Source: a virus
Lineage: Duplodnaviria > Heunggongvirae > Uroviricota > Caudoviricetes
Direction: 5' to 3' (one strand)
Length of the DNA stretch: 34,848 nt
IMG/VR virus record: IMGVR_UViG_2651869781_000011
Position numbers and translations under genes: made by a program. Positions 2,582 through 31,061 of the stretch are shown here, piece by piece. The notes beneath the pieces are model-generated. The model was not told the DNA's origin. It did not search any database and saw only the letters and a list, made by a program, of their open reading frames with translations. The first letter of the stretch is position 1. Each line of letters starts with the position of its first letter.

Positions 2582-2880
2582 CAGTGAGTGACCTCTTCAA
2601 AGGTACAGTTAAAATCGGTATACATGGCATTATCCGAAGTACTCCACTCCCTGCAGACAACCCTGACAGTCCTGTTGTGTTTTGGCGGGCGCCACAAAAA
2701 AGCACGCATCCCGGCATGACGGGATAAAAAACTGTCCAGCGCGGCGCGGGAATATTCATCTGTGACACGAAATACCGGTTTAAAGGTTTTCAGATCCGCA
2801 TTCAGACCACCAGCCCGTCGCTGTTCATATCCGTCACCGAACTTTACTGTAATAACAGATGGCTTTCGTGTCGTCTCCAT
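2581..2880 (-). CDS. M: Minor tail protein M
   Basis: Track ORF 2581-2967; likely true start is ATG at 2880 (METTRKP...), preceded by a GAGGGG SD and lying after the H stop; lambda gpM-like (FGDGYEQR). Confidence 0.85.
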   Translation of the reverse strand: METTRKPSVITVKFGDGYEQRRAGGLNADLKTFKPVFRVTDEYSRAALDSFLSRHAGMRAFLWRPPKHNRTVRVVCREWSTSDNAMYTDFNCTFEEVTH

Positions 2881-2914
2881 CCCCTCGCGGGGGATCCAGT
2901 TAAAAACTTCAGAC

Positions 2915-5900
2915 TCAGGCACTGCATAATCCTCCGTCCCGACGTGATGACTGCATAATTGACACAACCCTGCTGTCGATCAGATCCACCAGCCCCCTGG
3001 CTGACTGCGTATCTATCTCGCCATTGCTCCCTTTATTCTGAATACTGATGTGATACACGGGAGAATAAACAAATCCCCCGCCACCATTCACATTGCCAAT
3101 GGCTCTGACCCCAAGAGAGCCGTCCGCTGCCCGTGTCAGTGGCATGATAGCTTCAGGCCCGGCCTCGCCCATCAGCCCGGCACCTTTCGCAAAAGCAAAA
3201 TACGTCGGTGTATCCACAATAGTGTTACTGTAAGCACTCAGATTTGCCGATGTGTAAACACCACCTTTTGCGTTTGCCACTGCACCGGAAAGCCAGTCGC
3301 CGACCGTACCAAGCCATCCTCCGGCACCGGACATGCTTTTGGAAAGTGACTTCAGCCCGTTAACGATGGCAGCGTTCATCAGAATTTTTGAAACTTCCTG
3401 GAGGATTGAACTCCCCCAGTTTCGCCAGTCCACAACATTTCCGGCCAGTGCATCGGAAATATTTGATACCAGCCCGTCCATAGTGGAAACGACAGCATCT
3501 GCCGCCTGCGAAGCATAATCGGTGGCACTGTCTGCCCAGTTCGTCAGCCCCTCCTGGAGTCCGGCATTCCAGTCACTGCGTAAAGCATCAGCCTTTGCAT
3601 AATAATCCTGCTGATCGCTGAGACGCTCTTCCAGATATTTTTCATTCAGCGATTTTTCCTGTTTCCACAGGGCTTCTTCAATTTCTCCGGCCTGATACTG
3701 TCTCAGCAGCTCGTTATTTTTCTGCTCAAACGCCTGCCGGATACTCCACATTTCCTGGAGTCGTTCACGCATCCGTGAGCCTTCACCATATCCCAGCAAC
3801 TGCGCGTCGTCAGATGCCCGGGCGCTGGCATTACTGTCCGCCAGACTGCTTTCATACGCGGCAAGCTGCTCACGAATCTTTTTCTGGTCGATGAGTGCCG
3901 CATTCTGTAAAAGCGTTTTTTTCTGCGCTTCTGACAGGGTTGATAATTCGCCCTGACTGACCTGATATTTCATCTTAGCCAGTTCAGTATTCTGACCTGC
4001 CAGTGCTATTTGTTCTTTTTGCTGTTTAATCAGCCGTTTATAAATATCTTCTGTTTTTTCCGCTTCGGTCTTTTTATGCGCTTTGGGTTTATTTGCCTGG
4101 TTATTTCGCCAGGCATCCAGTGAGTTATTGATATAATTCTGTCTGGCTGTCTGATACGCCTCTCCCACAAAGCCGAGATCATCCGCAGCATAACCCAGTC
4201 GGGCACGCTCACGGGCTTCCCCCTTCAGGCGGGACAGAGCCAGTTCGCGCTCGCTGTTATTCAGTGCGGTCTGCTGTTTATCATCCAGGGTGGCCTGTGG
4301 CAGCCGTAACGGTACATTCACCAGCCCCTGTCGCTGCTGAAGTAATTCATTACCAAGCCCGAGAAGGCGATTAAACTCGGTATGCTGCCCATTCATGATC
4401 AACATGGACTGATACGCTTTGTTTTGTTCCGCTGCCTGTTGACGGATCAACGCAACCCGCCGCTCCTCCAGCCCGGCAAGCACATCCTGAATGGATTGCG
4501 CTTTGTCCTGCATTTGAGTGAGGCGAGACTGTTCAACTGCCAGTTGATTTGTTGCTTCTGCAAGCCCTTCTGTGACAGTTTTTACCGACGTCATGTGGTT
4601 AATCATAAAACCGTTATCGGTTGTCCAGCCCGGGTTTGCCAGCACATACTGATAGCCAGCAATTTTTTCCTGTAAGGATTTAATCTTACTTTTCTGCTCG
4701 TCAATTAACCTGTTCTGCTCCTTCAGTGCCTGCCGCGTCTTTTCCTCATTATCTGACGCTTCAGGAAGCGACATTGCCGACGTTTTCTGGCGAATTTCGT
4801 CGATTGTTGCGGCATACTGGCGTGCAGATTCTCTGGCCTGCTCCTGATTCTGATACATCGTGTACCAGGCCGTCGCCCCCAGCATGACGAGTCCCGGCAC
4901 ACCACCAACCAACCCCAGCGCACCACTTAACAGACGACTCCCCACTGACGTGACAGTATTCAGCGTTGTCTGTGCCGCTGTTCTGGCCGTAATATTACGG
5001 GTAAGTGACGCCTGGGCAGCTGTCAGCTTCGCTTCTGCGGCTGCCTGCCTTTCGGTACCGCGAGCAGCAACAACCGCCTGTTGCGCACGATAAACCGCCG
5101 CACGCGCCCTGGCGGTTGCTATCTGTGTCCCCCGAAGTTGCGCTTCAGCAAGAGCCACTTCGTTTCTGGCTGCAGTAATTAATCCGGCAGTTGCAGATCC
5201 AGCAGAAGACGCCATATTGCCAAAATATCGGGCTACCCCGACGGCAACCAGAGCACCGGCAGCGGTTGCCACAGTGTCAATATTGCCTGCAATACCATTC
5301 AGCACACCAGAGAGCGTCTTTGTCACTCCGCTTGCCTCGTTCGCACCACCAACCCAGGCCATAAAGGCGTTTTCAACTTTGGTTGCAGAGGATGAAACCG
5401 TATCAGGCATTGCTGCATATTCATCACGCAACGCCCCAAGCTGACTAATCAGTGCAGGGACAACCTTATCGGCAGTCAGTTTTCCGTTATCCGCCATGGC
5501 CTTCAGATCCTTACGGGCAACACCCATTCCCGCAGCCAGCGCACGAATAACACGATCGCCGTTCTCATTCACAGAGTTAAATTCTTCACCACGCAGCACT
5601 CCCTGCGCCAGTGCCTGACTGAACTGCGTGATCACCGAACTGGCTTCTGCTGTACTGGCACCGGATAATTTCAGGCCCGTGGAGATCGCCTCGGTGACTT
5701 TCAGTACCTCCTCAGAACTGTAGCCATACTCCCGCATGGAAGCTGCAGAACGGGCAAAAAGGCTGGCGTTATCAGAAAACGCCGTCCCCGTTCTCTGGCT
5801 GATCGCCATTAATTCACGCTGTGATGCCTGAAAATCATCACTGGACTGTGAGGCCTGCTTCAGACGGGCATTTACTGAATTCCACTCATCGGCGAGAGAA

Positions 5901-12625: not shown

Positions 12626-14383
12626 TTAAAGCGAGCGGATGCCCACGCTGACCAAATGTTCAGACAGATCCGGCTCCGGTTCACCACCATTGACCAGCAT
12701 CCGGCTCATTGCTGTAAACATCGCAACAGGGCCATCGATTTTGGCTTCCGGCGTGGATTTATTCGGGAAGATATTGTCGTTTTTGTCCGGTTTTACCGTA
12801 ACGTTAGACATCATCCAGTTCATGACCGGATGATTGCTGTGATGGAAACGCCCGGCATAGACCAGTGATTCCGTTTCCTTCATGGCCTCTGACAGATTGC
12901 GGACCGTCTGCGGAACCTCCACCAGAGGTATCCCTTCTTCAGCCAGTGCAAGGCTGAACTGCATCGCGCTCCACGGGTCAAATCCCAGCTCCCTGAGGTT
13001 TTCACCACCAATCCATTCCAGTAAATCACTTTTTATCTGAGCATGATCGATAACATCACCATCCGTCAGGATAAGCTTATCCATCTCCGCCCATTTCCGG
13101 TAAAGCTCCGCCATCTGCCGCGAGCACCGCTCCAGCCGTCCTTCCGGAAGCCAGAATTTAAAATCGGCATGAACATGTCCGTTATCGGTTCGCCAGAGTT
13201 TTGCCGCCGCACAGATATCAATCTTATGAGCAAGGTCTACACCGACCCACATGGGATATGTTTTCAGCTCATGCTGTGGAGCAATGTATTCGCACATCTC
13301 CCACTTAATCATGTCCATCCAGGCAGATTCGGCAGTGACCCACACATTCATGTGTTTCGTGAAAAAATTCACCCGCGCCGAGACCTGCTCCTTCGCCTTT
13401 TTCGCCAGACGACGCAGATCATCCCAGCGCTTACAGATGCCCAGGCCCGGATTCGCTTTCTGCCAGACCGTTTCATCAAACGGATCATCTCCCTCATCGA
13501 GGGTGTAAATAATCGCAAAGTAGGAATCGTCTTTTACCGCGCCCTCCACGTCGCTGTTATATCCTCGCAATACCTTGATGGCGTAATCGCGTTGCTCGTA
13601 ACAAATCCCTTCCTTGTTAAAGCCAGCCGTGGTGATACCAAATAAAAGGGACTGCAGACGGGCACCGGTTGCCGTTTCCAGAACGTCCCACACGTCGCGG
13701 GTTTTATGTGCATGCAGCTCATCAATAATGGCGCAGTGGATGTTCAGACCGTCCAGGTTGTTTGCATCCGAGGAAAGCGGTTCAAATTTTGATGCGCTCT
13801 GCTCCTGGTAAATCGCCAGCTTGTTGAAATCAAACAACCGCCCGAGTGTCGACCGGGCTTTTCTGACCATATTTTTGGCGTCTTCAAACACGATTCTGGC
13901 CTGGTCACGCGTGGTTGCGGCTGAATACACCTCAGCACCGCCTTCACCATCTGCCCCCGTCATATAAAGACCGATACCCGATGACAGGGTTGATTTTGCG
14001 TTTTTACGGGCGACTTCGTTGTACGCCGTCCGGAACCGGCGCACCATCACCGGGCGTCCGCTGCCATCGCTGCGCATGACAACTTCCCCGGTCTCTTCAT
14101 TCACCAGCGGAATGACAAAACCAAAAATATTAATGAGGATAAATACATGCCAGTCCATCAACTCAATGGGCTGGCCTGCCAGCGCCCCTTTTACATGAGG
14201 CACAAATTTATAGAAATTCAGGATGTGTTGTGCACGGGGTTCACTGAAATAAATCCCCCGCTCTTCGCCGTACTTCAGATCATCAAGAAAACGCTGGCAG
14301 GCCAGACGGACAAATTCGCCAGCAACAATTTCTCCTGCAACAACACGTTCGGCGTAGCGGATCCCGTCAGCCACTTTTGCCAT
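12626..14383 (-). CDS. Terminase large subunit
   Basis: 585 aa; TerL-like sequence; start overlaps TerS end. Confidence 0.9.
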
Positions 14384-16465: not shown

Positions 16466-16999
16466 TTATCTGTCGATCCCCCAGCACACCAGCGCACTCT
16501 CCTGGTCACGACGAATAACCTGACCGTAACAGTTATTTGAACGAATGCGGCAATCACGGCCACCGTCCTTAATCCACCAGCGAATCGCCTCGCATGCGCC
16601 TTTGCGATCACCGGCATTCAGCCGCTTATAAAACGTCGACGGGAAACACTTACCGGGGCCAATGTTATAGGGACAAAATGACGCAATACCTGCTTTTTGT
16701 GGTTCGGTCAGTGGTACTTTTATATTGCGATCCACCCATGCCAGCGCCTTATCACGTTCAATAGCGTTAACCTGGTCGCATTTTTCCTTCGACAGCTTCA
16801 TTCCCGGTATGACGGGCTTACCATCCACCATTGTGGCACCACGACAGATGGTCCATATGCCAGAACCATCACGGTATGCCGTTGTGTGGTTACCTTCTTT
16901 TTCATCCAGAAACTGGTCAAGTATTTGAGGAGCAGACGCGCCTGCAGCAATCAGCGCCAGAACGGCAGCTGACAGGCCGTATTTGATTTTTGCGTTCAT
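16466..16999 (-). CDS. R: SAR endolysin (T4-lysozyme-like, GH24)
   Basis: 177 aa; N-terminal Ala/Gly-rich signal-anchor-release segment (YGLSAAVLALIAAGASAP); resembles Stx-phage-type endolysins as recalled. Confidence 0.9.
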   Translation of the reverse strand: MNAKIKYGLSAAVLALIAAGASAPQILDQFLDEKEGNHTTAYRDGSGIWTICRGATMVDGKPVIPGMKLSKEKCDQVNAIERDKALAWVDRNIKVPLTEPQKAGIASFCPYNIGPGKCFPSTFYKRLNAGDRKGACEAIRWWIKDGGRDCRIRSNNCYGQVIRRDQESALVCWGIDR

Positions 17000-17062
17000 G
17001 GATATTTATCAGAATTTACCGGTTTCTGCCCATGGACAGGTTTATCTGTTCCGGTCAGTGGC

Positions 17063-17413
17063 TTAAGGTTGCGATTCCGGAGGAGTCTTCAGAGAACAAG
17101 TAATTCTTCCCGGTAGCTTTCCTTTGTAGGTTACCCACACATTCTGCGCCTCAAAAATTATGGGGCGTTTTTCTGGCGACGGCTCATCCCATTCACATAA
17201 CCTGGCAGCAACATCCAGAAATACCTGTCTGATTCTCCTTCTGGCTGCTGCCTCATAAAACTCCAGCGCAGCACCTTCAACACGGTCCATGGTGATGTCC
17301 AGGTCAAAAATTTCACCGTCAAAGCGTTCTTTGTTCCGTAAGGCTAAAGTTACCGCAACTTTATTCTCAAAATTGCGGACTCCCTTAACAACCAGTTCAT
17401 AGTTTTGAGTCAT
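17063..17413 (-). CDS. Hypothetical cytoplasmic protein (116 aa) inserted between holin and endolysin
   Basis: ATG 17413 lies 4 nt after the holin stop with a GGGAGAG SD; no TM segment or signal peptide. Confidence 0.55.
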   Translation of the reverse strand: MTQNYELVVKGVRNFENKVAVTLALRNKERFDGEIFDLDITMDRVEGAALEFYEAAARRRIRQVFLDVAARLCEWDEPSPEKRPIIFEAQNVWVTYKGKLPGRITCSLKTPPESQP

Positions 17414-25041: not shown

Positions 25042-25731
25042 TCACTTTTCCGATACAACGCGACTGGTGGAATCGACAATCTGTCGGACAATATCCCGGT
25101 GTTTATTCAGCTCCCGCAGTGCTGCGCAGACGCGCTCCCACTTCTGGACACGGTTTTTTGCCCGGCGCAGTTCGCGGTTTGCCAGATGCAGCGATGGTAA
25201 AGTCAGGTCATCGGCTCGCGTTTTGGTGAACGATGGCAACGACTGCACAATGTCCGCCACAGTTTCTGTTTTAATTTCTTCCTGTATTGCAGCTTTCGGC
25301 TCTGCTGGTAAATTATCGTCCGGCATGCAGTAACGAAATTTACCGTTCTGATTTACGCGAATCAGGCGACCTTTGCTGATTGCCTGAGCCAGCGTTGAAG
25401 CCACTTTGCGTGATGTGGTACCGAACAACGTAGCCAGTTCATCCGCCGTTTGTGGTCCGCGTTGTTCAATCGTCGCGGTTAAATCGCACTCTGAGATTTT
25501 CGCTACTGTTGCTGTGGTGGTTTCTTCCGGCAGTTCTGCCTGCGCTGGCTGTTCCTGCTGAACGTTGTTATCAGCCACACGCCAGGTGTACGCGCTTTTA
25601 TCAACAAAACCAGCATTTTTCAGTTCCCATAGTTCGTTAAGCACTTCTTCACGACTGATATCAAGTCGCGCCGCAAGTTCTATGGATGTGGCTTTTCCCA
25701 TTGCTTTCAGTGCGTCAAAAACAGTCTCCAT
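25042..25731 (-). CDS. Hypothetical protein with probable N-terminal winged-helix domain
   Basis: Track ORF 25042-25782; likely start [30 protein letters not shown]...; downstream of the DnaC-like gene. Confidence 0.45.
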
Positions 25732-25753
25732 TAAATTTTTCTCCCGGTAAAAA

Positions 25754-26500
25754 TCACTTCGTGATTCCTGGCTGGACGACATTCGGGCGCCAGCTTTCCC
25801 AGTTAAAATTCACCCAGCGTCCGCCGTTCATGGTCATGCGATCCATAATCCGCTCACCGAGCAATGTTTTCATGGCCTCATAGTTCAGGTTTGTCAGCAT
25901 TCCCACGCTACGCATCGACGCTGTCCGTCGATCAATAATCTGGTGCAGTACCACCTGCTCGTTTTTCGTCTCACGCTGAATGCCAATTTCATCAAGAACC
26001 AGCAGATCCACTTCGCACAGTTCCTGCAAAAATTTTTCGCCTGACTGCCCGTCGTCATAGCTGGCGTGCAGGGCACTCATAACATCAGCCACAGTAACCA
26101 CTATCACTGTCTGGCCGTCTTTCAGCAGGCGATTTCCGATAGCCGCCGCCAGATGGTTTTTCCCGGTACCAGGTTTTCCACTGAACGCGAAATTTGTACA
26201 CCCGGTCATCAGTTCATCGGCGATGGATTTTGCCTGGCTTAACGCGTATCGCTGACCGTCGTTCTGCACCTGGTAATTCGCAAACGAACATTTGCGGTGC
26301 AACGGCTGGATGCCTGAGCGATTCAGAATTTTTTCCACCCGCAACTGACGATTCAGGCGGTTGATCTCCTCGCTACGTTTCTGGCCTTCGGCAAGCTGCC
26401 ACTCGCGCCACTCCGCCACCGTTCTGTATGGAGCGGTTACATGTGGCGGGGTCAGTCTGCGGAGGCGTTCCAGAACACCACCTGTCGCAATATTTTTCAC
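25754..26500 (-). CDS. DnaC-like replicative helicase loader (IstB-like AAA+)
   Basis: 248 aa; Walker [14 protein letters not shown], Walker B LLVLDEIG; follows the O-like gene. Confidence 0.85.
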
Positions 26501-26506
26501 AGTTCG

Positions 26507-27472
26507 TTACCCCCTGAACCCCGGCGGAATTTCGGTGTCCGGTTCAGAAATGTGATTCACACAACGCTGTACAGGCGAACGCCCCAGACGGATAACCAGC
26601 TCATCCCATTTTTCGCGAAGCTTTGACGGGCTCATGACGTTTTTTACCCAGAATGGATCCCGCTGTACCCGACCAAACATTTCGCAAATTTGCCTGTGAG
26701 TTCTGCCATCCAGCATCCGCATTGTGCGCACGTCATTGGCCCACACGGTCCAGTTTGGTTCTTTCGGTCGCATGATCTCGCCATCATCGCTGGCAGCCTG
26801 CTCGTAAAGACTCACGATTCGTCCCCAGATCCACTGCGCACAAGCTAAATCTTCCTGGCTACCCCACTGGCGTTTTTTCGCACTGAACACAACCGCGTCA
26901 GGGTGTCGGGTTAAAAAATCCTGTTCAGCCGTCTGCATGTCCGGTTGCGAAGCTTCCGGACGAGAAGTGTTTTTATTCTCTGTAGTAATCTCTGTTGTAT
27001 TCTCTGTAAGATCATCGGGCCATTTTGACCCGATGACATTGGGTCGTTTTGAACCAATGGAGCGTGCCATTTTGACCTCTTCCATCGTGTCATTTTGACC
27101 TGATGGAGCGGCGCATTTTGACCTGATGGATTCGCTCACTTTGCCACCATCTAAAAGCTCACTCTCGTAATTAATCGTGTAAAAATTAGTCATGTCACGC
27201 TTTGATTTGTTGAGCTTTTCGCAACGCAAAAGCCCCAGCGTTTTCAGACTTGCAAATGCGCGTTTTAACGTTGACTCTGACCAGAACGGGAACTGTTCCA
27301 GCCATTGTTCTGTTGTGTTATAAATCCAGCGAACCCCGTTACATTCCATGCCGGAATTAGTATCTCTCAACCAGTAATGCAGCTGCTGCAGTACAATGGC
27401 TTCATTCAGGCCAATTTTCATCGCCAGCTGCGTGTTAATAACCAGTGGGCGTTCAGCAAAAAGAAGACTCAT
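26507..27472 (-). CDS. Replication initiator (lambda O-like), ori iterons inside the gene
   Basis: Track ORF to 27526 begins at TTG; ATGs at 27514 and 27472; N-terminal DNA-binding-like region, acidic repeat linker, C-terminal domain; contains the iteron array. Confidence 0.75.
   Translation of the reverse strand: MSLLFAERPLVINTQLAMKIGLNEAIVLQQLHYWLRDTNSGMECNGVRWIYNTTEQWLEQFPFWSESTLKRAFASLKTLGLLRCEKLNKSKRDMTNFYTINYESELLDGGKVSESIRSKCAAPSGQNDTMEEVKMARSIGSKRPNVIGSKWPDDLTENTTEITTENKNTSRPEASQPDMQTAEQDFLTRHPDAVVFSAKKRQWGSQEDLACAQWIWGRIVSLYEQAASDDGEIMRPKEPNWTVWANDVRTMRMLDGRTHRQICEMFGRVQRDPFWVKNVMSPSKLREKWDELVIRLGRSPVQRCVNHISEPDTEIPPGFRG
27021..27147. repeat. Origin iterons: CATTTTGACC-type repeats at ~23-bp spacing
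   Basis: Four exact CATTTTGACC copies (27021, 27068, 27091, 27114) plus two degenerate ones; three 12-bp TCTCTGT-containing repeats just upstream (26974-27009); AT-richer stretch follows. Confidence 0.7.
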
Positions 27473-27974
27473 AATTCCATCCGGCTTTTTGTTGATATTG
27501 CTGACGATACGCATGCTTGAAAGCAATAGCTTTTTCTATAAGCTCGTCAGTCTCACGCTCCACAACAGCGGGATCTGCCAAAAGCAGACCGGACTCCACC
27601 ACATCGCCATATTCTTTGTTTAACCCGGCGATCATGTACGTAATGCTTTTTCCGTCAGTAATTTCACAATACAACCTGAAATCGCTGATCCGGATAGCCT
27701 CCATAATTGCCGGAATCAGCGCCGTGAATTTTTCCCGCTTATCCCTGGTGTCGATAGCTTTCCAGCGTTCGAATATCTTCACCCGGTTAACGCCCAACGC
27801 CCGTTGATCAACCTCGCCATCATTAAACGTGACGCGTTGAACATCGATGTTCGGGCGTTCTTTCAGAGCCCAGAATGCTTCCGTGATTAATATCGTCGCC
27901 TGCTCCTGTGTCATTCCTGGTCGGCATACCCAGGCATCCAGAGCCTCACAAACCTGTTCAGGGGTGATTTTCAT
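27453..27974 (-). CDS. Hypothetical protein at the cII position (possibly YdaT-like)
   Basis: 173 aa between the Cro-like gene and the O-like gene; family assignment uncertain. Confidence 0.35.
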   Translation of the reverse strand: MKITPEQVCEALDAWVCRPGMTQEQATILITEAFWALKERPNIDVQRVTFNDGEVDQRALGVNRVKIFERWKAIDTRDKREKFTALIPAIMEAIRISDFRLYCEITDGKSITYMIAGLNKEYGDVVESGLLLADPAVVERETDELIEKAIAFKHAYRQQYQQKAGWNYESSFC

Positions 27975-28185
27975 TGTTCAACCGCCCCGCCCGCTTTGCC
28001 TTACGATATTCGTCATAAACTTTGGGGTCGTACTGAAGTTCCCCGCCGGATGCCTCTTGCAGGCGCATCGCGCGACCTTCAGGAACCAGTTCCCCCCATT
28101 GAGAAACAGCAGATGGATCAACACCAGCAGCTTTCGCTACTTTGGCTTTCGTCCCATAAAAATTAATTACGTCTGATTTAAACAT
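27958..28185 (-). CDS. dicC: Cro-like regulator (DicC/YdaS family)
   Basis: 75 aa from ATG 28185 with GGAGGGG SD; divergent from the repressor gene; HTH-like N-terminus. Confidence 0.7.
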   Translation of the reverse strand: MFKSDVINFYGTKAKVAKAAGVDPSAVSQWGELVPEGRAMRLQEASGGELQYDPKVYDEYRKAKRAGRLNNENHP

Positions 28186-28262
28186 CACCCCTCCAAAGTT
28201 GAGTTTTCTCAATAGTAATCACTCAAGGAATCTCAAGTCAAGGGTTATTAAGATATCTAAAT
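28186..28262. promoter_or_regulatory. Divergent promoter/operator region between dicC-like and dicA-like genes
   Basis: TTGAGTTTTCTCA at 28199-28211, CTCAAG direct repeats at 28222-28237; candidate minus-strand promoter TTGACT-N18-TACTAT; no SD before the dicA ATG. Confidence 0.5.
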
Positions 28263-28670
28263 ATGAACGAGAAAACTTTAGGTCAACGAATTAGAGAAAG
28301 ACGCAAACAGGTTGGTTTAAGTCAAAACGATTTAAGCAAAGCCGCTGGCGTATCTGGCTCATCAATTTCACTATGGGAAAGCGACCATACAGCCCCGCGC
28401 GGGCAAAATTTGCATCGCCTGGCTGAGGTATTGCAATGTTCACCAACTTGGATACTGTTTGGTGACGAGGATAAAACACCAGATCCACCAGTTGCACTCA
28501 ACAGCGCCTTAGACTTATCGGAAGATGAGTTGGAGATGTTGCGATTGTATCGCGCACTTCCAAAATCAGAGCAGCAAGCACAAATCAGCGAACTCCGTGC
28601 CCGCGTTGAGAATTTTAATCGCCTATTCACCGAGCTACTAGAAGCTCGCAAACGTAACAAACATCAGTAA
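28263..28670 (+). CDS. dicA: XRE-family repressor (DicA-like, CI analogue)
   Basis: 135 aa; HTH LSQNDLSKAAGVSGSSISLWE; ...VLQCSPTWILFGDEDK... matches DicA as recalled. Confidence 0.8.
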   Translation: MNEKTLGQRIRERRKQVGLSQNDLSKAAGVSGSSISLWESDHTAPRGQNLHRLAEVLQCSPTWILFGDEDKTPDPPVALNSALDLSEDELEMLRLYRALPKSEQQAQISELRARVENFNRLFTELLEARKRNKHQ

Positions 28671-30593: not shown

Positions 30594-30782
30594 ATGAAAA
30601 CGTTATTACCAAACGTTAATACGTCTGAAGGTTGTTTTGAAATTGGTGTCACTATCAGCAATCAGATATTTACTGAAGATGCCATTAATAAAAGAAAACA
30701 CGAACAGGAACTGCTAAATAAAATATGCATTGTTTCGATGCTGGCCCGTTTACGTCTGATGCAAACAGGATGCAGGCAATGA
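30594..30782 (+). CDS. dicB: Cell division inhibitor DicB
   Basis: 62 aa MKTLLPNVNTSEGCFEIGVTISN...ICIVSMLARLRLMQTGCRQ; GAGGA SD; matches DicB as recalled. Confidence 0.85.
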   Translation: MKTLLPNVNTSEGCFEIGVTISNQIFTEDAINKRKHEQELLNKICIVSMLARLRLMQTGCRQ

Positions 30783-30969
30783 ATACGGCATTTGTACTCG
30801 TTCTGACTGTTTTTTTGTTTCTGGTGAACCGATTGATCTTGTTATTGACATACATGACTCAATGGAAGAATGCATGACTGCCGCGGCAGAGCAAAAAATT
30901 CCCGGGAACTGTTATCCTGTCGACAAAATTATTCGCATGAACAATAACGAAATCCCGGCAGGCCTTTAA
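30779..30969 (+). pseudogene. ydfD: ydfD-like gene interrupted by a frameshift at a T7 tract
   Basis: ATG overlaps the dicB stop; frame stops after 32 codons; one extra T in the 30810-30816 run would give a continuous 63-codon ORF. Confidence 0.5.
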
Positions 30970-31061
30970 AACAGCCCCATAATAAATATCCGGTTTTATT
31001 TTTATATGTCAGCAATGGCAGGGATTTGTCCACCCTTAAATCTGTAATGAGGTAAAACAAA

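What the first reader, a model, noticed from the sequence alone, without database searches (positions are those of the whole stretch)
26974..27150. Replication origin iterons embedded in the initiator gene
Six CATTTTGACC-type repeats at ~23-bp periodicity, preceded by three 12-bp direct repeats and followed by an AT-richer segment, lie within the linker region of the O-like ORF. This is the lambda ori layout; together with an intact DnaC-like loader it suggests a replication-competent prophage, unlike the defective Qin element whose immunity genes it shares.
Basis: partly seen in the sequence, partly recalled or inferred. Interest (0 to 1): 0.4.

Follow-up and report, generated by a model that had tools for sequence, protein, structure and literature searches.

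The report
Replication origin inside phage initiator gene
The repeats are real and are almost certainly the replication origin of an E. coli lambdoid prophage, lying inside its own initiator gene as in phage lambda; it is an ordinary kind of element, though from an uncatalogued initiator family found across many bacterial phyla.

Summary
Window 27013-27151 holds six 23-bp units: four exact CATTTTGACC cores (0.07 expected), one with 2 mismatches and one decayed. Three 12-bp repeats lie at 26974-27009. All sit in the linker of a 321-aa initiator gene (26507-27472, minus strand).

The repeats are constrained as DNA, not as peptide. The core is read in all three frames. Across 35 relatives the codon-position pattern of diversity vanishes in the array (pi 0.09/0.09/0.10, against 0.09/0.04/0.30 in the N-domain).

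The same cassette recurs in 55-65 of 78 loci from Proteobacteria to Firmicutes. It consists of a winged-helix N-domain, then 21-24-bp semi-palindromic A-tract iterons whose arms change by lineage, then ACAGAGAnTAC 11/12-mers.

In gene orientation the order is iterons, AT/purine-rich block, C-domain, as in lambda.

The DnaC-like loader is optional in the family. Origin function is inferred, not tested. I rate it a new variant of a known kind, of moderate interest.

The parts
26507..27472 (-). Initiator gene (321 aa). It has an N-terminal winged-helix domain, an origin-encoded linker and a lambda-O-like C-domain.
   Evidence: ORF list. PGAP CDS WP_052931679.1 is annotated 'hypothetical protein' in the 100%-identical record. 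PHROG 391 'replication initiation O-like', E=1.3e-95. No Pfam hit.
27155..27472 (-). N-domain coding part (aa 1-106), the predicted origin-binding winged helix-turn-helix.
27129..27151 (-). Iteron 6, the unit farthest from the 12-mers. It is decayed in this window.
   Evidence: Core on the sense strand is TGGCAAAGTG, 3/10 mismatches. Relatives have GAGGTCAAAGTGA at the same position.
27106..27128 (-). Iteron 5. Sense strand CATCAGGTCAAAATGCGCCGCTC; read as R-S-K-C (frame 1).
27083..27105 (-). Iteron 4. Sense strand CATCAGGTCAAAATGACACGATG, a near-perfect palindrome; read as G-Q-N-D (frame 0).
27060..27082 (-). Iteron 3. Sense strand GAAGAGGTCAAAATGGCACGCTC; read as E-V-K-M (frame 2).
27037..27059 (-). 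Iteron 2. Sense strand CATTGGTTCAAAACGACCCAATG (core has 2 mismatches, palindromic arms kept); read as G-S-K-R.
27013..27035 (-). Iteron 1, next to the 12-mers. Sense strand CATCGGGTCAAAATGGCCCGATG, with 7-nt inverted arms around TCAAAATGG.
   Evidence: inverted repeat I2, 91% complementary.
26969..27012 (-). AT-rich, purine-rich block: GATC followed by three 12-mers (TTACAGAGAATA CAACAGAGATTA CTACAGAGAATA) and AAAA. Candidate DNA-unwinding element, at the position of lambda's AT-rich region.
   Evidence: GC 0.28-0.31 and sense-strand purine 0.67. The motif ACAGAGAnTAC is clustered in 65/78 loci, with third codon positions 96-99% fixed and 10 copies in other frames. Third-position pi is 0.013, against 0.299 in the N-domain. 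Lambda has the same position and composition.
27169..27208 (-). It codes for the conserved KSKRDMTNFYTINY end of the N-domain and is an alternative unwinding site.
   Evidence: GC 0.28. Across the family there is a GC dip of -0.09 at -180..-141 relative to the 12-mers.
26507..26926 (-). C-domain coding part (aa 183-321). It is homologous to the lambda O C-terminal domain and is the presumed helicase/loader recruitment domain.
   Evidence: tblastn: residues 183-294 are 40.2% identical to lambda O, E=9e-18. The same C-domain is joined to a different N-domain and different linker repeats in VIT_AJPSC and 733R5.
26510..26566 (-). C-terminal tail (...SEPDTEIPPGFRG). It travels with the DnaC-like gene as one recombination module.
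   Evidence: 68% identical to the last 19 aa of Rac YdaU. Rac DNA homology (93%) runs over 25483-26543. Weak match to the last 20 aa of the DnaT model, E=0.0045.
25754..26500 (-). ydaV, a DnaC-like AAA+ helicase-loader gene (248 aa).
   Evidence: NCBIfam PRK12377 E=1.5e-153. The DnaC equivalog model scores 304 bits, below its 357 cut-off. Pfam IstB_IS21. 94% identical to Rac YdaV.
27453..28670 (.). Upstream control region: cII-like/YdaT-family gene (27453-27974, -), cro/DicC-like gene (27958-28185, -) and cI/DicA-like repressor (28263-28670, +). The initiator lies in the rightward early operon.
   Evidence: Pfam and PHROG hits. PGAP annotation. Comparison with Qin.

Best explanation
This is the vegetative replication origin of a lambdoid prophage, built into the linker-coding part of its own initiator gene.

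Inferred mechanism. The initiator's N-terminal winged-helix domain binds, probably as dimers, to the five or six 23-bp semi-palindromic iterons (arms converging on TCAAAATG). The phased, A-tract-bent array forms an O-some-like nucleoprotein complex. This destabilises the adjacent AT-rich, purine-rich block of three ACAGAGAnTAC 12-mers (26969-27012), which melts. The lambda-O-like C-domain and its C-terminal tail then bring in DnaB, through the phage DnaC-like YdaV or, in the many relatives that lack it, through host DnaC. Transcription from the cro-side early promoter runs through the origin, as in lambda.

Shown: the anatomy; DNA-level rather than protein-level constraint; family-wide conservation with lineage-specific iteron arms; domain homologies and fold.

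Inferred by analogy with lambda O/ori-lambda and pSK41 RepA/ori: binding, bending, melting at the 12-mers and helicase loading.
For: (1) The clustering is non-random: 4 exact 10-mers against 0.07 expected, at spacings of 23/23/23/24.

(2) The repeat is a DNA repeat. A 23-bp period shifts the reading frame, so the core GGTCAAAATG is translated as SKC, GQN, VKM, SKR and SKW.

(3) Selection acts on the DNA. In 35 unique relatives, diversity by codon position is 0.092/0.039/0.299 in the N-domain but flat (0.092/0.088/0.098) in the iteron region. It is 0.013-0.035 at third positions of the 12-mers. Cores (pi 0.057) are more conserved than inter-core spacers (0.113).

(4) The cassette is conserved across the family. 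Of 78 non-redundant loci from Enterobacterales, Pseudomonas, Comamonas, Bacillaceae, Staphylococcus, Lactobacillales and others, 65 have clustered ACAGAGAnTAC copies. Of those 65, 55 have at least 3 iterons just upstream. Spacings are 23 (117 times), 22 (26), 24 (20) and 21 (6), and the units fall in all three frames in 42 loci.

(5) Change is concerted. All units within a locus share arms that differ between lineages (GGTCAAAATGACC, GGACAAnTTGTCC, GGGCAAnTTGCMC, TGTTCAAAATGAACA, GGATCAAAATGATCC), while the centre CAAAWTG stays. This is the signature of sites co-evolving with a cognate binding domain.

(6) Module boundaries fit. Kp4886-3 and yong2 keep the N-domain, iterons and 12-mers but have another C-domain. 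VIT_AJPSC and 733R5 keep the C-domain but have another N-domain and other linker repeats.

(7) The layout matches two validated origins. In lambda, iterons lie at O nt 349-433, followed by an AT-rich (GC 0.27), purine-rich (0.71) block (PMC7466680). In pSK41, four 23-bp Rep boxes GTGTCAAAAGGACAC lie centrally in rep, followed by 3 x 15-bp AT-rich repeats (PMC5703833).

(8) RepA_N iterons are described as semi-palindromic direct repeats whose inverted repeats converge on a poly-A tract (PMC7145576), which is exactly the form seen here.

(10) Isolated or induced phages (mEp460_ev081, HannyBb, PhiR42_1) carry a 91% nt / 95% aa identical gene with the same iterons.

(11) The iteron nearest the 12-mers is the best palindrome and the farthest is the decayed one. 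[quoted passage not shown]
Against: There is no experimental evidence for binding, unwinding or autonomous replication for any member of this family in the literature I could search. PMC12315714 states that O-only lambdoid replication modules have never been studied.

The N-domain has no significant sequence similarity to lambda O or pSK41 RepA. The link to RepA_N rests on a predicted fold with modest TM-scores (0.56).

Both flanks of the array are AT-rich, so the site of melting is not determined.

Of the 12-mer copies, 170 of 180 are in one reading frame (T-E-x-T), so some peptide-level contribution cannot be fully excluded.

The prophage's portal gene is annotated as frameshifted in the identical genome, so this copy may never complete a lytic cycle.
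Confidence: 0.85

Rival explanations
1. The repeats are coding-driven. On this reading they form a low-complexity, repetitive linker peptide that arose by slippage or duplication, with no role as DNA.
For: The repeats lie in an inter-domain linker that tolerates variation. The 12-mers are in frame and encode TENT-TEIT-TENK. Of the 12-mer copies in the family, 170 of 180 are in frame 0.
Against: The 23-bp period puts the same core in three frames encoding unrelated tripeptides. The codon-position diversity pattern disappears in the array and third positions are about 3-fold more conserved than in the N-domain. In the 12-mers the Thr and Glu third positions are fixed as ACA and GAG in 96-99% of 180 copies, from hosts that include Pseudomonas and Staphylococcus. 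Ten copies occur in frames +1 or +2, encoding R-D-Y instead. Units fall in all three frames in 42 loci.
Confidence: 0.02
2. The units are initiator-binding sites, but their main role here is regulatory (autorepression, copy control by handcuffing, or exclusion of related phages), or they are a vestigial origin in a defective prophage. Replication of this element would not start here.
For: Iterons in plasmids commonly double as control elements (general knowledge of iteron plasmids). Cloned lambda origin iterons exert an inhibition phenotype on rep-lambda phages (PMC3349717 abstract). The portal gene is annotated as a pseudogene. The sixth unit has decayed.
Against: The gene is full length, as in 74 of 78 close relatives. 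The array and the 12-mers match the consensus of phages deposited as isolated or induced. The conserved adjacent AT-rich 12-mer block has no obvious role in a purely regulatory array. The layout equals two experimentally proven origins.
Confidence: 0.08
3. This is an origin as described, but strand opening occurs in the upstream AT-rich flank (27151-27230, the first reader's segment) rather than in the 12-mer block. The 12-mers would then be a second protein-binding site, for example for a host factor or for the initiator on double-stranded DNA.
For: 27169-27208 has GC 0.28, as low as the 12-mer block. A GC dip of -0.09 at this position is family-wide. A true unwinding element need not be sequence-conserved, whereas the 12-mers are conserved like a recognition site.
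Against: The upstream flank encodes near-invariant N-domain residues (D93, T95, Y98, I100). Its composition is therefore at least partly explained by the protein, and its third positions vary normally (pi about 0.12-0.19 in nt 241-315). In lambda and pSK41 the AT-rich or short-repeat block lies downstream of the iterons. The best iteron is the one next to the 12-mers.
Confidence: 0.2

Closest known systems
Phage lambda ori-lambda with the O initiator, including the six-iteron origins of Stx phages 933W and P27
   Same: The origin lies in the middle of the initiator gene, between a DNA-binding N-domain and a recruitment C-domain. There are 4-6 dyad-symmetric iterons with a central A-tract (lambda ATCCCTCAAAACGAGGGA; here CATCGGGTCAAAATGGCCCGATG) at 20-24-bp spacing and read in different frames. 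In the direction of transcription they are followed by an AT-rich block that is purine-rich on the sense strand. The relative position in the gene is the same (0.39-0.48 against 0.33-0.48). The C-domain is 40% identical. The gene sits in the cro-cII-O early operon (PMC7466680).
   Different: The N-domain is not Pfam Phage_rep_O and shows no profile similarity to the lambda O N-domain. The units are 23 bp rather than 18-19 bp, and the iteron sequence differs. The AT-rich block is made of sequence-conserved 12-mers instead of a plain A-rich tract. The partner is a DnaC-like AAA+ protein (or none), not lambda P.
RepA_N theta replicons of Gram-positive plasmids (pSK41 and pTZ2162 RepA), and PLE RepA of Vibrio cholerae
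   Different: There is no sequence-level match to Pfam RepA_N PF06970 or to RepA chains in the PDB. The C-domain here is lambda-O-like rather than the DnaG-binding C-domain of pSK41. The element is a lambdoid prophage of a Gram-negative host, where RepA_N proteins are said to be rare (PMC7145576). The ACAGAGAnTAC motif is absent from pSK41 rep.
Rac prophage ydaU-ydaV module (and oriJ) of E. coli K-12
   Same: The DnaC-like gene is 94% identical. The 3' end of the initiator gene and its C-terminal tail are shared as one DNA module, with Rac homology over 25483-26543.
   Different: YdaU is a DUF1376 protein unrelated over the rest of its length, so it has a different origin-binding part. I did not examine Rac's origin. 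That Rac carries an origin called oriJ is from my own knowledge, not tested here.
O-only replication modules of lambdoid phages (phage LLS and 34 of 314 Enterobacterales lambdoid phages; PMC12315714)
   Same: Most close relatives of this initiator (62 of 76 loci; in PhiR42_1, whose neighbourhood was read, no loader gene follows it either) have no helicase or loader gene after it. This fits the class that the paper calls never studied and not understood.
   Different: The window's copy does carry a DnaC-like gene. I did not verify that the LLS O homolog belongs to this N-domain family.

Membership tests
Lambda-type origin / O initiator | Origin located inside the initiator gene, between the DNA-binding N-domain and the C-domain | tested here: met
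   Iterons lie at gene nt 321-459 of 966, between the N-domain (aa 1-106) and the C-domain (aa 183-321).
Lambda-type origin / O initiator | Four or more phased iterons with dyad symmetry and a central A-tract | tested here: met
   Five good units plus one decayed unit, spacing 23-24 bp, with arms CATCRGG/CCYGATG around TCAAAATG.
Lambda-type origin / O initiator | AT-rich region next to the iterons, downstream in the direction of O transcription | tested here: met
   26969-27012: GC 0.28-0.31, sense-strand purine 0.67. Lambda: GC 0.27, purine 0.71.
Lambda-type origin / O initiator | N-domain belongs to Pfam Phage_rep_O (PF04492) or is homologous to the lambda O N-domain | tested here: not met
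   No Pfam family at E<=0.01 for the whole protein. Phage_rep_O is not among the 25 most frequently matched families listed (of 41 matched) for 35 family members at E<=10. hhalign against lambda O 1-132 gives probability 0.06%.
Lambda-type origin / O initiator | C-domain homologous to the lambda O C-terminal domain | tested here: met
   Residues 183-294 are 40.2% identical to lambda O, E=9e-18.
Lambda-type origin / O initiator | Partner is a lambda P-type helicase loader encoded directly downstream | tested here: not met
   The downstream gene is a DnaC/IstB-like AAA+ protein. Most relatives have no loader gene.
Lambda-type origin / O initiator | Initiator binds the iterons and the region supports autonomous replication | not testable with these tools
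   This needs EMSA or footprinting and a plasmid replication assay.
RepA_N replicons (pSK41 type) | N-terminal domain matches Pfam RepA_N (PF06970) | tested here: not met
   No hit for the protein or among the 25 most frequently matched families listed (of 41 matched) for the 35 members. A profile search of PDB sequences finds no RepA chain. hhalign against pSK41 RepA 1-131 gives probability 0.1%.
RepA_N replicons (pSK41 type) | N-terminal domain has the RepA_N/DnaD-like winged-helix fold | tested here: met
RepA_N replicons (pSK41 type) | Origin lies centrally within rep, and the central part of the protein is an origin-encoded linker | tested here: met
   The position is the same as the pSK41 Rep boxes (rep nt ~409-500 of 960, against nt 321-459 of 966 here) (PMC5703833).
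RepA_N replicons (pSK41 type) | [quoted passage not shown] | tested here: met
   GGTCAAAATGACC-type units here and in 55 related loci. The criterion is as stated in PMC7145576.
DnaC helicase loader (for ydaV) | Reaches the NCBIfam DnaC equivalog cut-off | tested here: not met
   NF005931 scores 304 bits against a 357 cut-off. The best model is the PRK12377 'ATP-binding protein' subfamily (509 bits, cut-off 389). It is DnaC-like, not DnaC.

The most novel reading that the evidence does not exclude
The window is one instance of an uncatalogued origin cassette spread across phyla. The cassette is a RepA_N-like winged-helix domain with no Pfam model, followed by 21-24-bp A-tract palindromic iterons, followed by an 11/12-mer ACAGAGAnTAC array.

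The 11/12-mer array is conserved as DNA sequence from Firmicutes to Gammaproteobacteria, while the iteron arms and the C-domains change freely. A melting region conserved to the base implies that it is read sequence-specifically. The most likely reader is the conserved part of the N-domain acting on one strand, in the manner of DnaA-trios or plasmid Rep proteins on unwinding-element 13-mers, rather than the block being merely AT-rich.

The cassette would also supply the origin for the 'O-only' lambdoid phages, whose replication is stated to be not understood.
Probability: 0.35. Interest if true: 0.6.

Novelty: new variant of a known kind. Interest (0 to 1): 0.4.

Why it matters
For this window, the result locates the prophage's replication origin to about 180 bp. 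It also shows that the replication module (initiator, origin, loader) is intact. Its relative Qin has lost all three.

More generally, the gene is present in about a third or more of complete E. coli genomes (1734 of 5426 with a near-full match), where PGAP annotates it as 'hypothetical protein'. Its N-domain has no Pfam or NCBIfam model. Recognising it as an origin-binding domain with a built-in origin would improve prophage annotation and origin prediction.

The family ties lambda-type origins of Gram-negative phages to RepA_N-type plasmid origins of Gram-positives through a shared architecture, down to the 23-bp period.

It also offers a candidate sequence-specific unwinding element (ACAGAGAnTAC) that could be tested directly. 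Finally, it gives a concrete starting point for the 'O-only' lambdoid replication modules that have not been studied.

Tried and rejected
- Pfam, NCBIfam and PDB-sequence searches of the initiator and of a 35-member N-domain profile gave only sub-threshold generic winged-helix hits such as PadR, MarR, Cdc6_C and DnaD_N.
- hhalign of the profile against the pSK41 RepA N-terminal domain and the lambda O N-domain gave nothing. Homology to either is therefore not claimed at sequence level.
- Tandem Repeats Finder detects only 2.3 copies of the 23-mer and 2.7 of the 12-mer.
- Counting the core with one mismatch over the whole window is not significant. Only the exact count and the clustering are.
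- The first viral-contig scan with a single protein returned only 97-100% identical loci. These were useful for population variation but not for co-variation, so a profile scan of genome contigs was needed.
- The search for homologous proteins with the 110-aa N-domain returned only short or partial proteins without Pfam domains. I used them only as the alignment for structure prediction.
- A fixed-centre search (CAAAATG) missed the Pantoea and Pseudomonas iteron types and was replaced by a seed-free unit finder.
- A full-text search for the 12-mer sequences found no origin-related paper. Searching 'RepA_N' together with 'lambdoid' found nothing relevant. Weaver et al. 2009 (PMC2652615) is not held.
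- There are no DnaA boxes or IHF consensus sites in 26400-27700 apart from one weak TTTTTCACA at 26493, so I dropped a DnaA-dependent origin model.
- I considered a pac site or a recombination hotspot as explanations for the repeats. I rejected both because the repeats co-vary with the N-domain and match proven origin layouts.
Full report
1. What is in the sequence.

Window 26974-27151 contains two kinds of direct repeat. The first kind is five clear 23-nt units at 27013-27128 (spacing 24, 23, 23, 23), plus a sixth, decayed unit in register at 27129-27151. The second kind is three 12-nt repeats at 26974-27009.

The 10-mer CATTTTGACC occurs four times exactly, all in this array and nowhere else in the 34.8-kb window. 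Dinucleotide-preserving shuffles give 0.07 expected, and 0 of 100 shuffles reach 4. A fifth core has 2 mismatches and the sixth has 3.

All of this lies inside an ORF on the minus strand, 26507-27472, 321 aa. The window is 100% identical to an E. coli chromosome (NZ_CP180607.1), where it is part of a lambdoid prophage next to yccA. There the ORF is annotated 'hypothetical protein'.

2. The repeats are constrained as DNA, not as peptide.

A 23-bp period is not a multiple of three. On the sense strand the core GGTCAAAATG is read as S-K-C, G-Q-N, V-K-M, S-K-R and S-K-W in successive units.

I compared 35 unique relatives that share the N-domain and linker without indels: E. coli-type IMG/VR loci, plus Citrobacter, Klebsiella, Enterobacter, Raoultella and Izhakiella loci. 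Diversity at codon positions 1/2/3 is 0.092/0.039/0.299 in the N-domain, the usual signature of selection on protein. Across the iterons it is flat at 0.092/0.088/0.098. At third positions of the 12-mers it is 0.013-0.035. Iteron cores (0.057) are more conserved than the spacers between them (0.113).

The number of units is fixed. 74 of 78 complete near-identical genes are exactly 966 nt.

3. What the gene is.

PHROGs places the protein in 'replication initiation O-like' (phrog_391, E=1.3e-95). Pfam gives nothing, and NCBIfam gives only a weak match of the last 20 residues to the end of DnaT.

tblastn against phages shows that the protein is modular:
- Residues 183-294 are 40% identical to the C-terminal domain of lambda O (E=9e-18).
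- Residues 1-~125 match 'DnaD-like' or 'replication initiation' proteins of Staphylococcus, Bacillus, Listeria, Pseudomonas and Hafnia phages.
- Klebsiella phage Kp4886-3 and Hafnia phage yong2 keep the N-domain and the linker repeats but carry a different C-domain.
- Shigella phage VIT_AJPSC and E. coli phage 733R5 keep the C-domain but carry another N-domain and different linker repeats (DxSKSD-coding).

So the N-domain, the iterons and the 12-mers are inherited as one module. This is the behaviour expected of a specificity domain and its sites.

At sequence level there is no significant relation to RepA_N, to lambda O or to any PDB chain.

4. Family-wide anatomy.

A profile scan of one genome per species returned 80 loci. 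Together with the phage loci this gives 78 non-redundant genes. They come from Enterobacterales, Pseudomonas, Comamonas, Acinetobacter, Hydrogenimonas, Bacillaceae, Staphylococcus, Lactobacillales and some MAGs.

In 65 of the 78 genes, the motif ACAGAGAnTAC occurs in 2-5 clustered copies (spacing 12 in 105 cases, 11 in 8, 13 in 2). The cluster sits directly after the N-domain linker.

In 55 of those 65, three or more iteron units lie just upstream. Spacings are 23 (117 times), 22 (26), 24 (20) and 21 (6). The units fall in all three frames in 42 loci.

The centre of the iteron, CAAAWTG, is kept, while the palindromic arms change by lineage:
- GGTCAAAATGACC in Escherichia, Citrobacter, Klebsiella, Edwardsiella, Xenorhabdus and some staphylococci.
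- GGACAAnTTGTCC in Hafnia, Mixta and some Pantoea.
- GGGCAAnTTGCMC in Pantoea and Pseudomonas.
- TGTTCAAAATGAACA in Anoxybacillus and Bacillus.
- GGATCAAAATGATCC in Limosilactobacillus.

Within a locus all units carry the same arms. Because the units encode different amino acids, this concerted change cannot be protein-driven.

The 11/12-mer is conserved to the base. Positions C2 A3 G4 A5 G6 A7 T9 A10 are 92-100% invariant over 180 copies. These include the third positions of the Thr (ACA, 99%) and Glu (GAG, 96%) codons. Ten copies lie in frames +1 or +2, where they encode R-D-Y rather than T-E-T. A full-text search for these 12-mers found no origin-related paper.

5. Comparison with proven origins.

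Lambda. The four annotated iterons occupy O nt 349-433 (frames 0, 2, 2, 1; spacing 20-24). They have the form ATCCCTCAAAACGAGGGA. They are followed by a block with GC 0.27 and sense-strand purine 0.71. The literature places the lambdoid origin in the middle of O. It reports 4 iterons in lambda and 6 in Stx phages. It also reports that the iterons next to the AT-rich tract are bound best (PMC7466680).

This window. The iterons occupy nt 321-459 and are followed by a block with GC 0.28-0.31 and purine 0.67, namely the 12-mers. The iteron next to that block is the best palindrome and the farthest one is decayed.

pSK41. The review PMC5703833 states three things. The N-terminal 120 residues of Rep bind four Rep boxes located centrally within rep. 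The central part of the protein is an origin-encoded linker. The C-domain is host-specific. In the pSK41 sequence I find four 23-bp units (GTGTCAAAAGGACAC cores) followed at once by three 15-bp AT-rich direct repeats. This is the same plan and the same period as here. PMC7145576 describes RepA_N iterons as semi-palindromic direct repeats whose inverted repeats converge on a poly-A tract, which also fits.

6. Which flank melts?

Both flanks of the array are AT-rich in the window (27169-27208 and 26970-27009, each GC 0.28). The same holds across the family, with dips of -0.09 and -0.10 to -0.12 relative to each gene's mean.

The downstream 12-mer block is conserved as DNA and sits where lambda and pSK41 have their AT-rich repeats. 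I therefore favour the 12-mers as the unwinding element, at about 0.6. I keep the other flank as a rival.

7. Surroundings and the claim of replication competence.

Upstream lie a cII-like/YdaT-family gene, a cro/DicC-like gene and a divergent cI/DicA-like repressor.

Comparison with K-12 Qin:
- cI is 56% identical to DicA and cro is 71% identical to DicC.
- The YdaT-like protein is 90% identical to the truncated YdfX.
- ydfA-C are 97.6% identical at DNA level.
- Qin's homology ends at window 27695.

Qin therefore lacks the rest of that gene, the initiator with its origin, and the loader.

Downstream, ydaV (25754-26500) is a DnaC-like AAA+ protein. It matches NCBIfam PRK12377 at E=1.5e-153 but falls below the DnaC equivalog cut-off. 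It is 94% identical to Rac YdaV. Rac DNA homology extends 36 nt into the initiator's 3' end, so the last 19 residues match the tail of YdaU.

The loader is optional. Only 14 of 76 near-identical loci have it directly downstream. The phage records mEp460_ev081, HannyBb and PhiR42_1 all carry the initiator match. PhiR42_1 is the only one whose neighbourhood I read, and there the initiator is followed by lygF and a methyltransferase gene instead. PMC12315714 notes that 34 of 314 lambdoid phages have an O homolog but no helicase or loader, and that none has been studied.

The replication module of this prophage looks intact. However, PGAP marks the portal gene of the identical prophage as frameshifted, so the element may still be defective for particle production.

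8. Verdict.

The finding is real. It is best explained as the prophage's replication origin embedded in its initiator gene (confidence 0.85 for origin identity). The steps of binding, bending, melting and helicase loading are inferred from lambda and pSK41, not shown.

It belongs to the well-known 'origin inside the initiator gene' kind. It is not a member of the lambda O N-domain family or of Pfam RepA_N by sequence, although it works like both and has a lambda-O-type C-domain.

Three things go beyond the textbook:
- the uncatalogued N-domain family, RepA_N-like in fold and spread across phyla;
- the base-level conservation of the ACAGAGAnTAC block;
- the link to the unstudied O-only lambdoid modules.

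I rate it a new variant of a known kind, with interest 0.4.

Noticed in passing
window ~2583-5167 (minus strand) = NZ_CP180607.1 2069003-2071587: PGAP annotates the prophage's portal gene as a frameshifted pseudogene in the 100%-identical chromosome. A DUF1482 gene near window ~30782-30972 is also marked frameshifted. The prophage may be defective for morphogenesis even though its replication module is intact.
   Followed up: no
window 26510-26566; L172 (Rac ydaU 3' end); phage loci L004-L009: Initiators with quite different C-domains end in a similar tail: ...D(Y/V)S..(I/V)P(A/P)GFR(G/S/T). These include the lambda-O-like type, the 'conserved phage C-terminal domain' type of Kp4886-3 and yong2, and YdaU/DUF1376. 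The tail also matches the last 20 residues of the DnaT model (E=0.0045). In the window and in Rac it lies just upstream of a DnaC-like gene, and dnaT lies directly upstream of dnaC in E. coli (the dnaT-dnaC arrangement is from my own knowledge). It may be a docking peptide for DnaC or DnaB.
   Followed up: partly
IMG/VR loci L010-L089 and genome loci L090-L169: Only 14 of 76 near-identical E. coli-type loci, and 9 of 77 distant loci, have a DnaC-like gene directly after the initiator. Most are 'O-only' modules, a class that PMC12315714 says has never been studied.
   Followed up: partly
L018 (IMGVR_UViG_2563366940_000001) and one other IMG/VR locus, gene nt ~480: The initiator gene is interrupted inside the 12-mer block by an inserted element beginning TGTGAACCGCCCCGGGAATCCTGGAG (it looks like an IS3-family end). 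This truncates the ORF to 510 nt.
   Followed up: no
L092 and L010 (12-mer block): The copy number or sequence of the 12-mers varies slightly among near-identical genes. L092 has four 12-mers (326-aa protein). L010 has the middle unit converted to ACAGAGAATAC. The number of 23-bp iterons never varies in 74 genes.
   Followed up: partly
L092 ('Veillonella parvula' MAG), L093 ('Bacillota' MAG), L142 ('Collinsella' MAG): These metagenome-assembled genomes of Firmicutes or Actinobacteria carry a 97-98% identical E. coli-type initiator gene. This is most likely binning contamination, so I excluded them from the non-redundant set.
   Followed up: no
window 27695 (inside the cII-like/YdaT-family gene 27453-27974): This is the end point of DNA homology with K-12 Qin. 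Qin's YdfX (96 aa) is the N-terminal remnant of this 173-aa gene (90% identical), which marks the deletion that removed Qin's replication genes.
   Followed up: yes
window 27010-27013: A single GATC (Dam site) sits exactly at the junction between the last iteron and the first 12-mer. Many enterobacterial relatives have GATC at the same junction (GATGATCTT, CCGATCTT, CTGATCTT). No DnaA box or IHF consensus lies within the origin.
   Followed up: partly
L173 (pSK41) 13613-13754: In pSK41 rep, the four 23-bp Rep boxes are followed immediately by three 15-bp AT-rich direct repeats (TGATACTGATTTTAT, coding DTDFI). They are the structural counterpart of the 12-mers here. I do not know whether their role has been tested.
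   Followed up: partly
window ~16954-17205 (minus strand): The prophage carries three tRNA genes (Arg, Arg, Ile) between the Q antiterminator region and the lysis genes, according to the annotation of the identical record.
   Followed up: no
plasmid records H107, H110, H111, H119 and others: The same N-domain occurs on about 40-55-kb non-mobilizable 'plasmids' of E. coli, Bacillus cereus, Limosilactobacillus and Levilactobacillus. These are probably phage-plasmids. In one it is annotated 'replication protein', which suggests the cassette also maintains extrachromosomal prophages.
   Followed up: no
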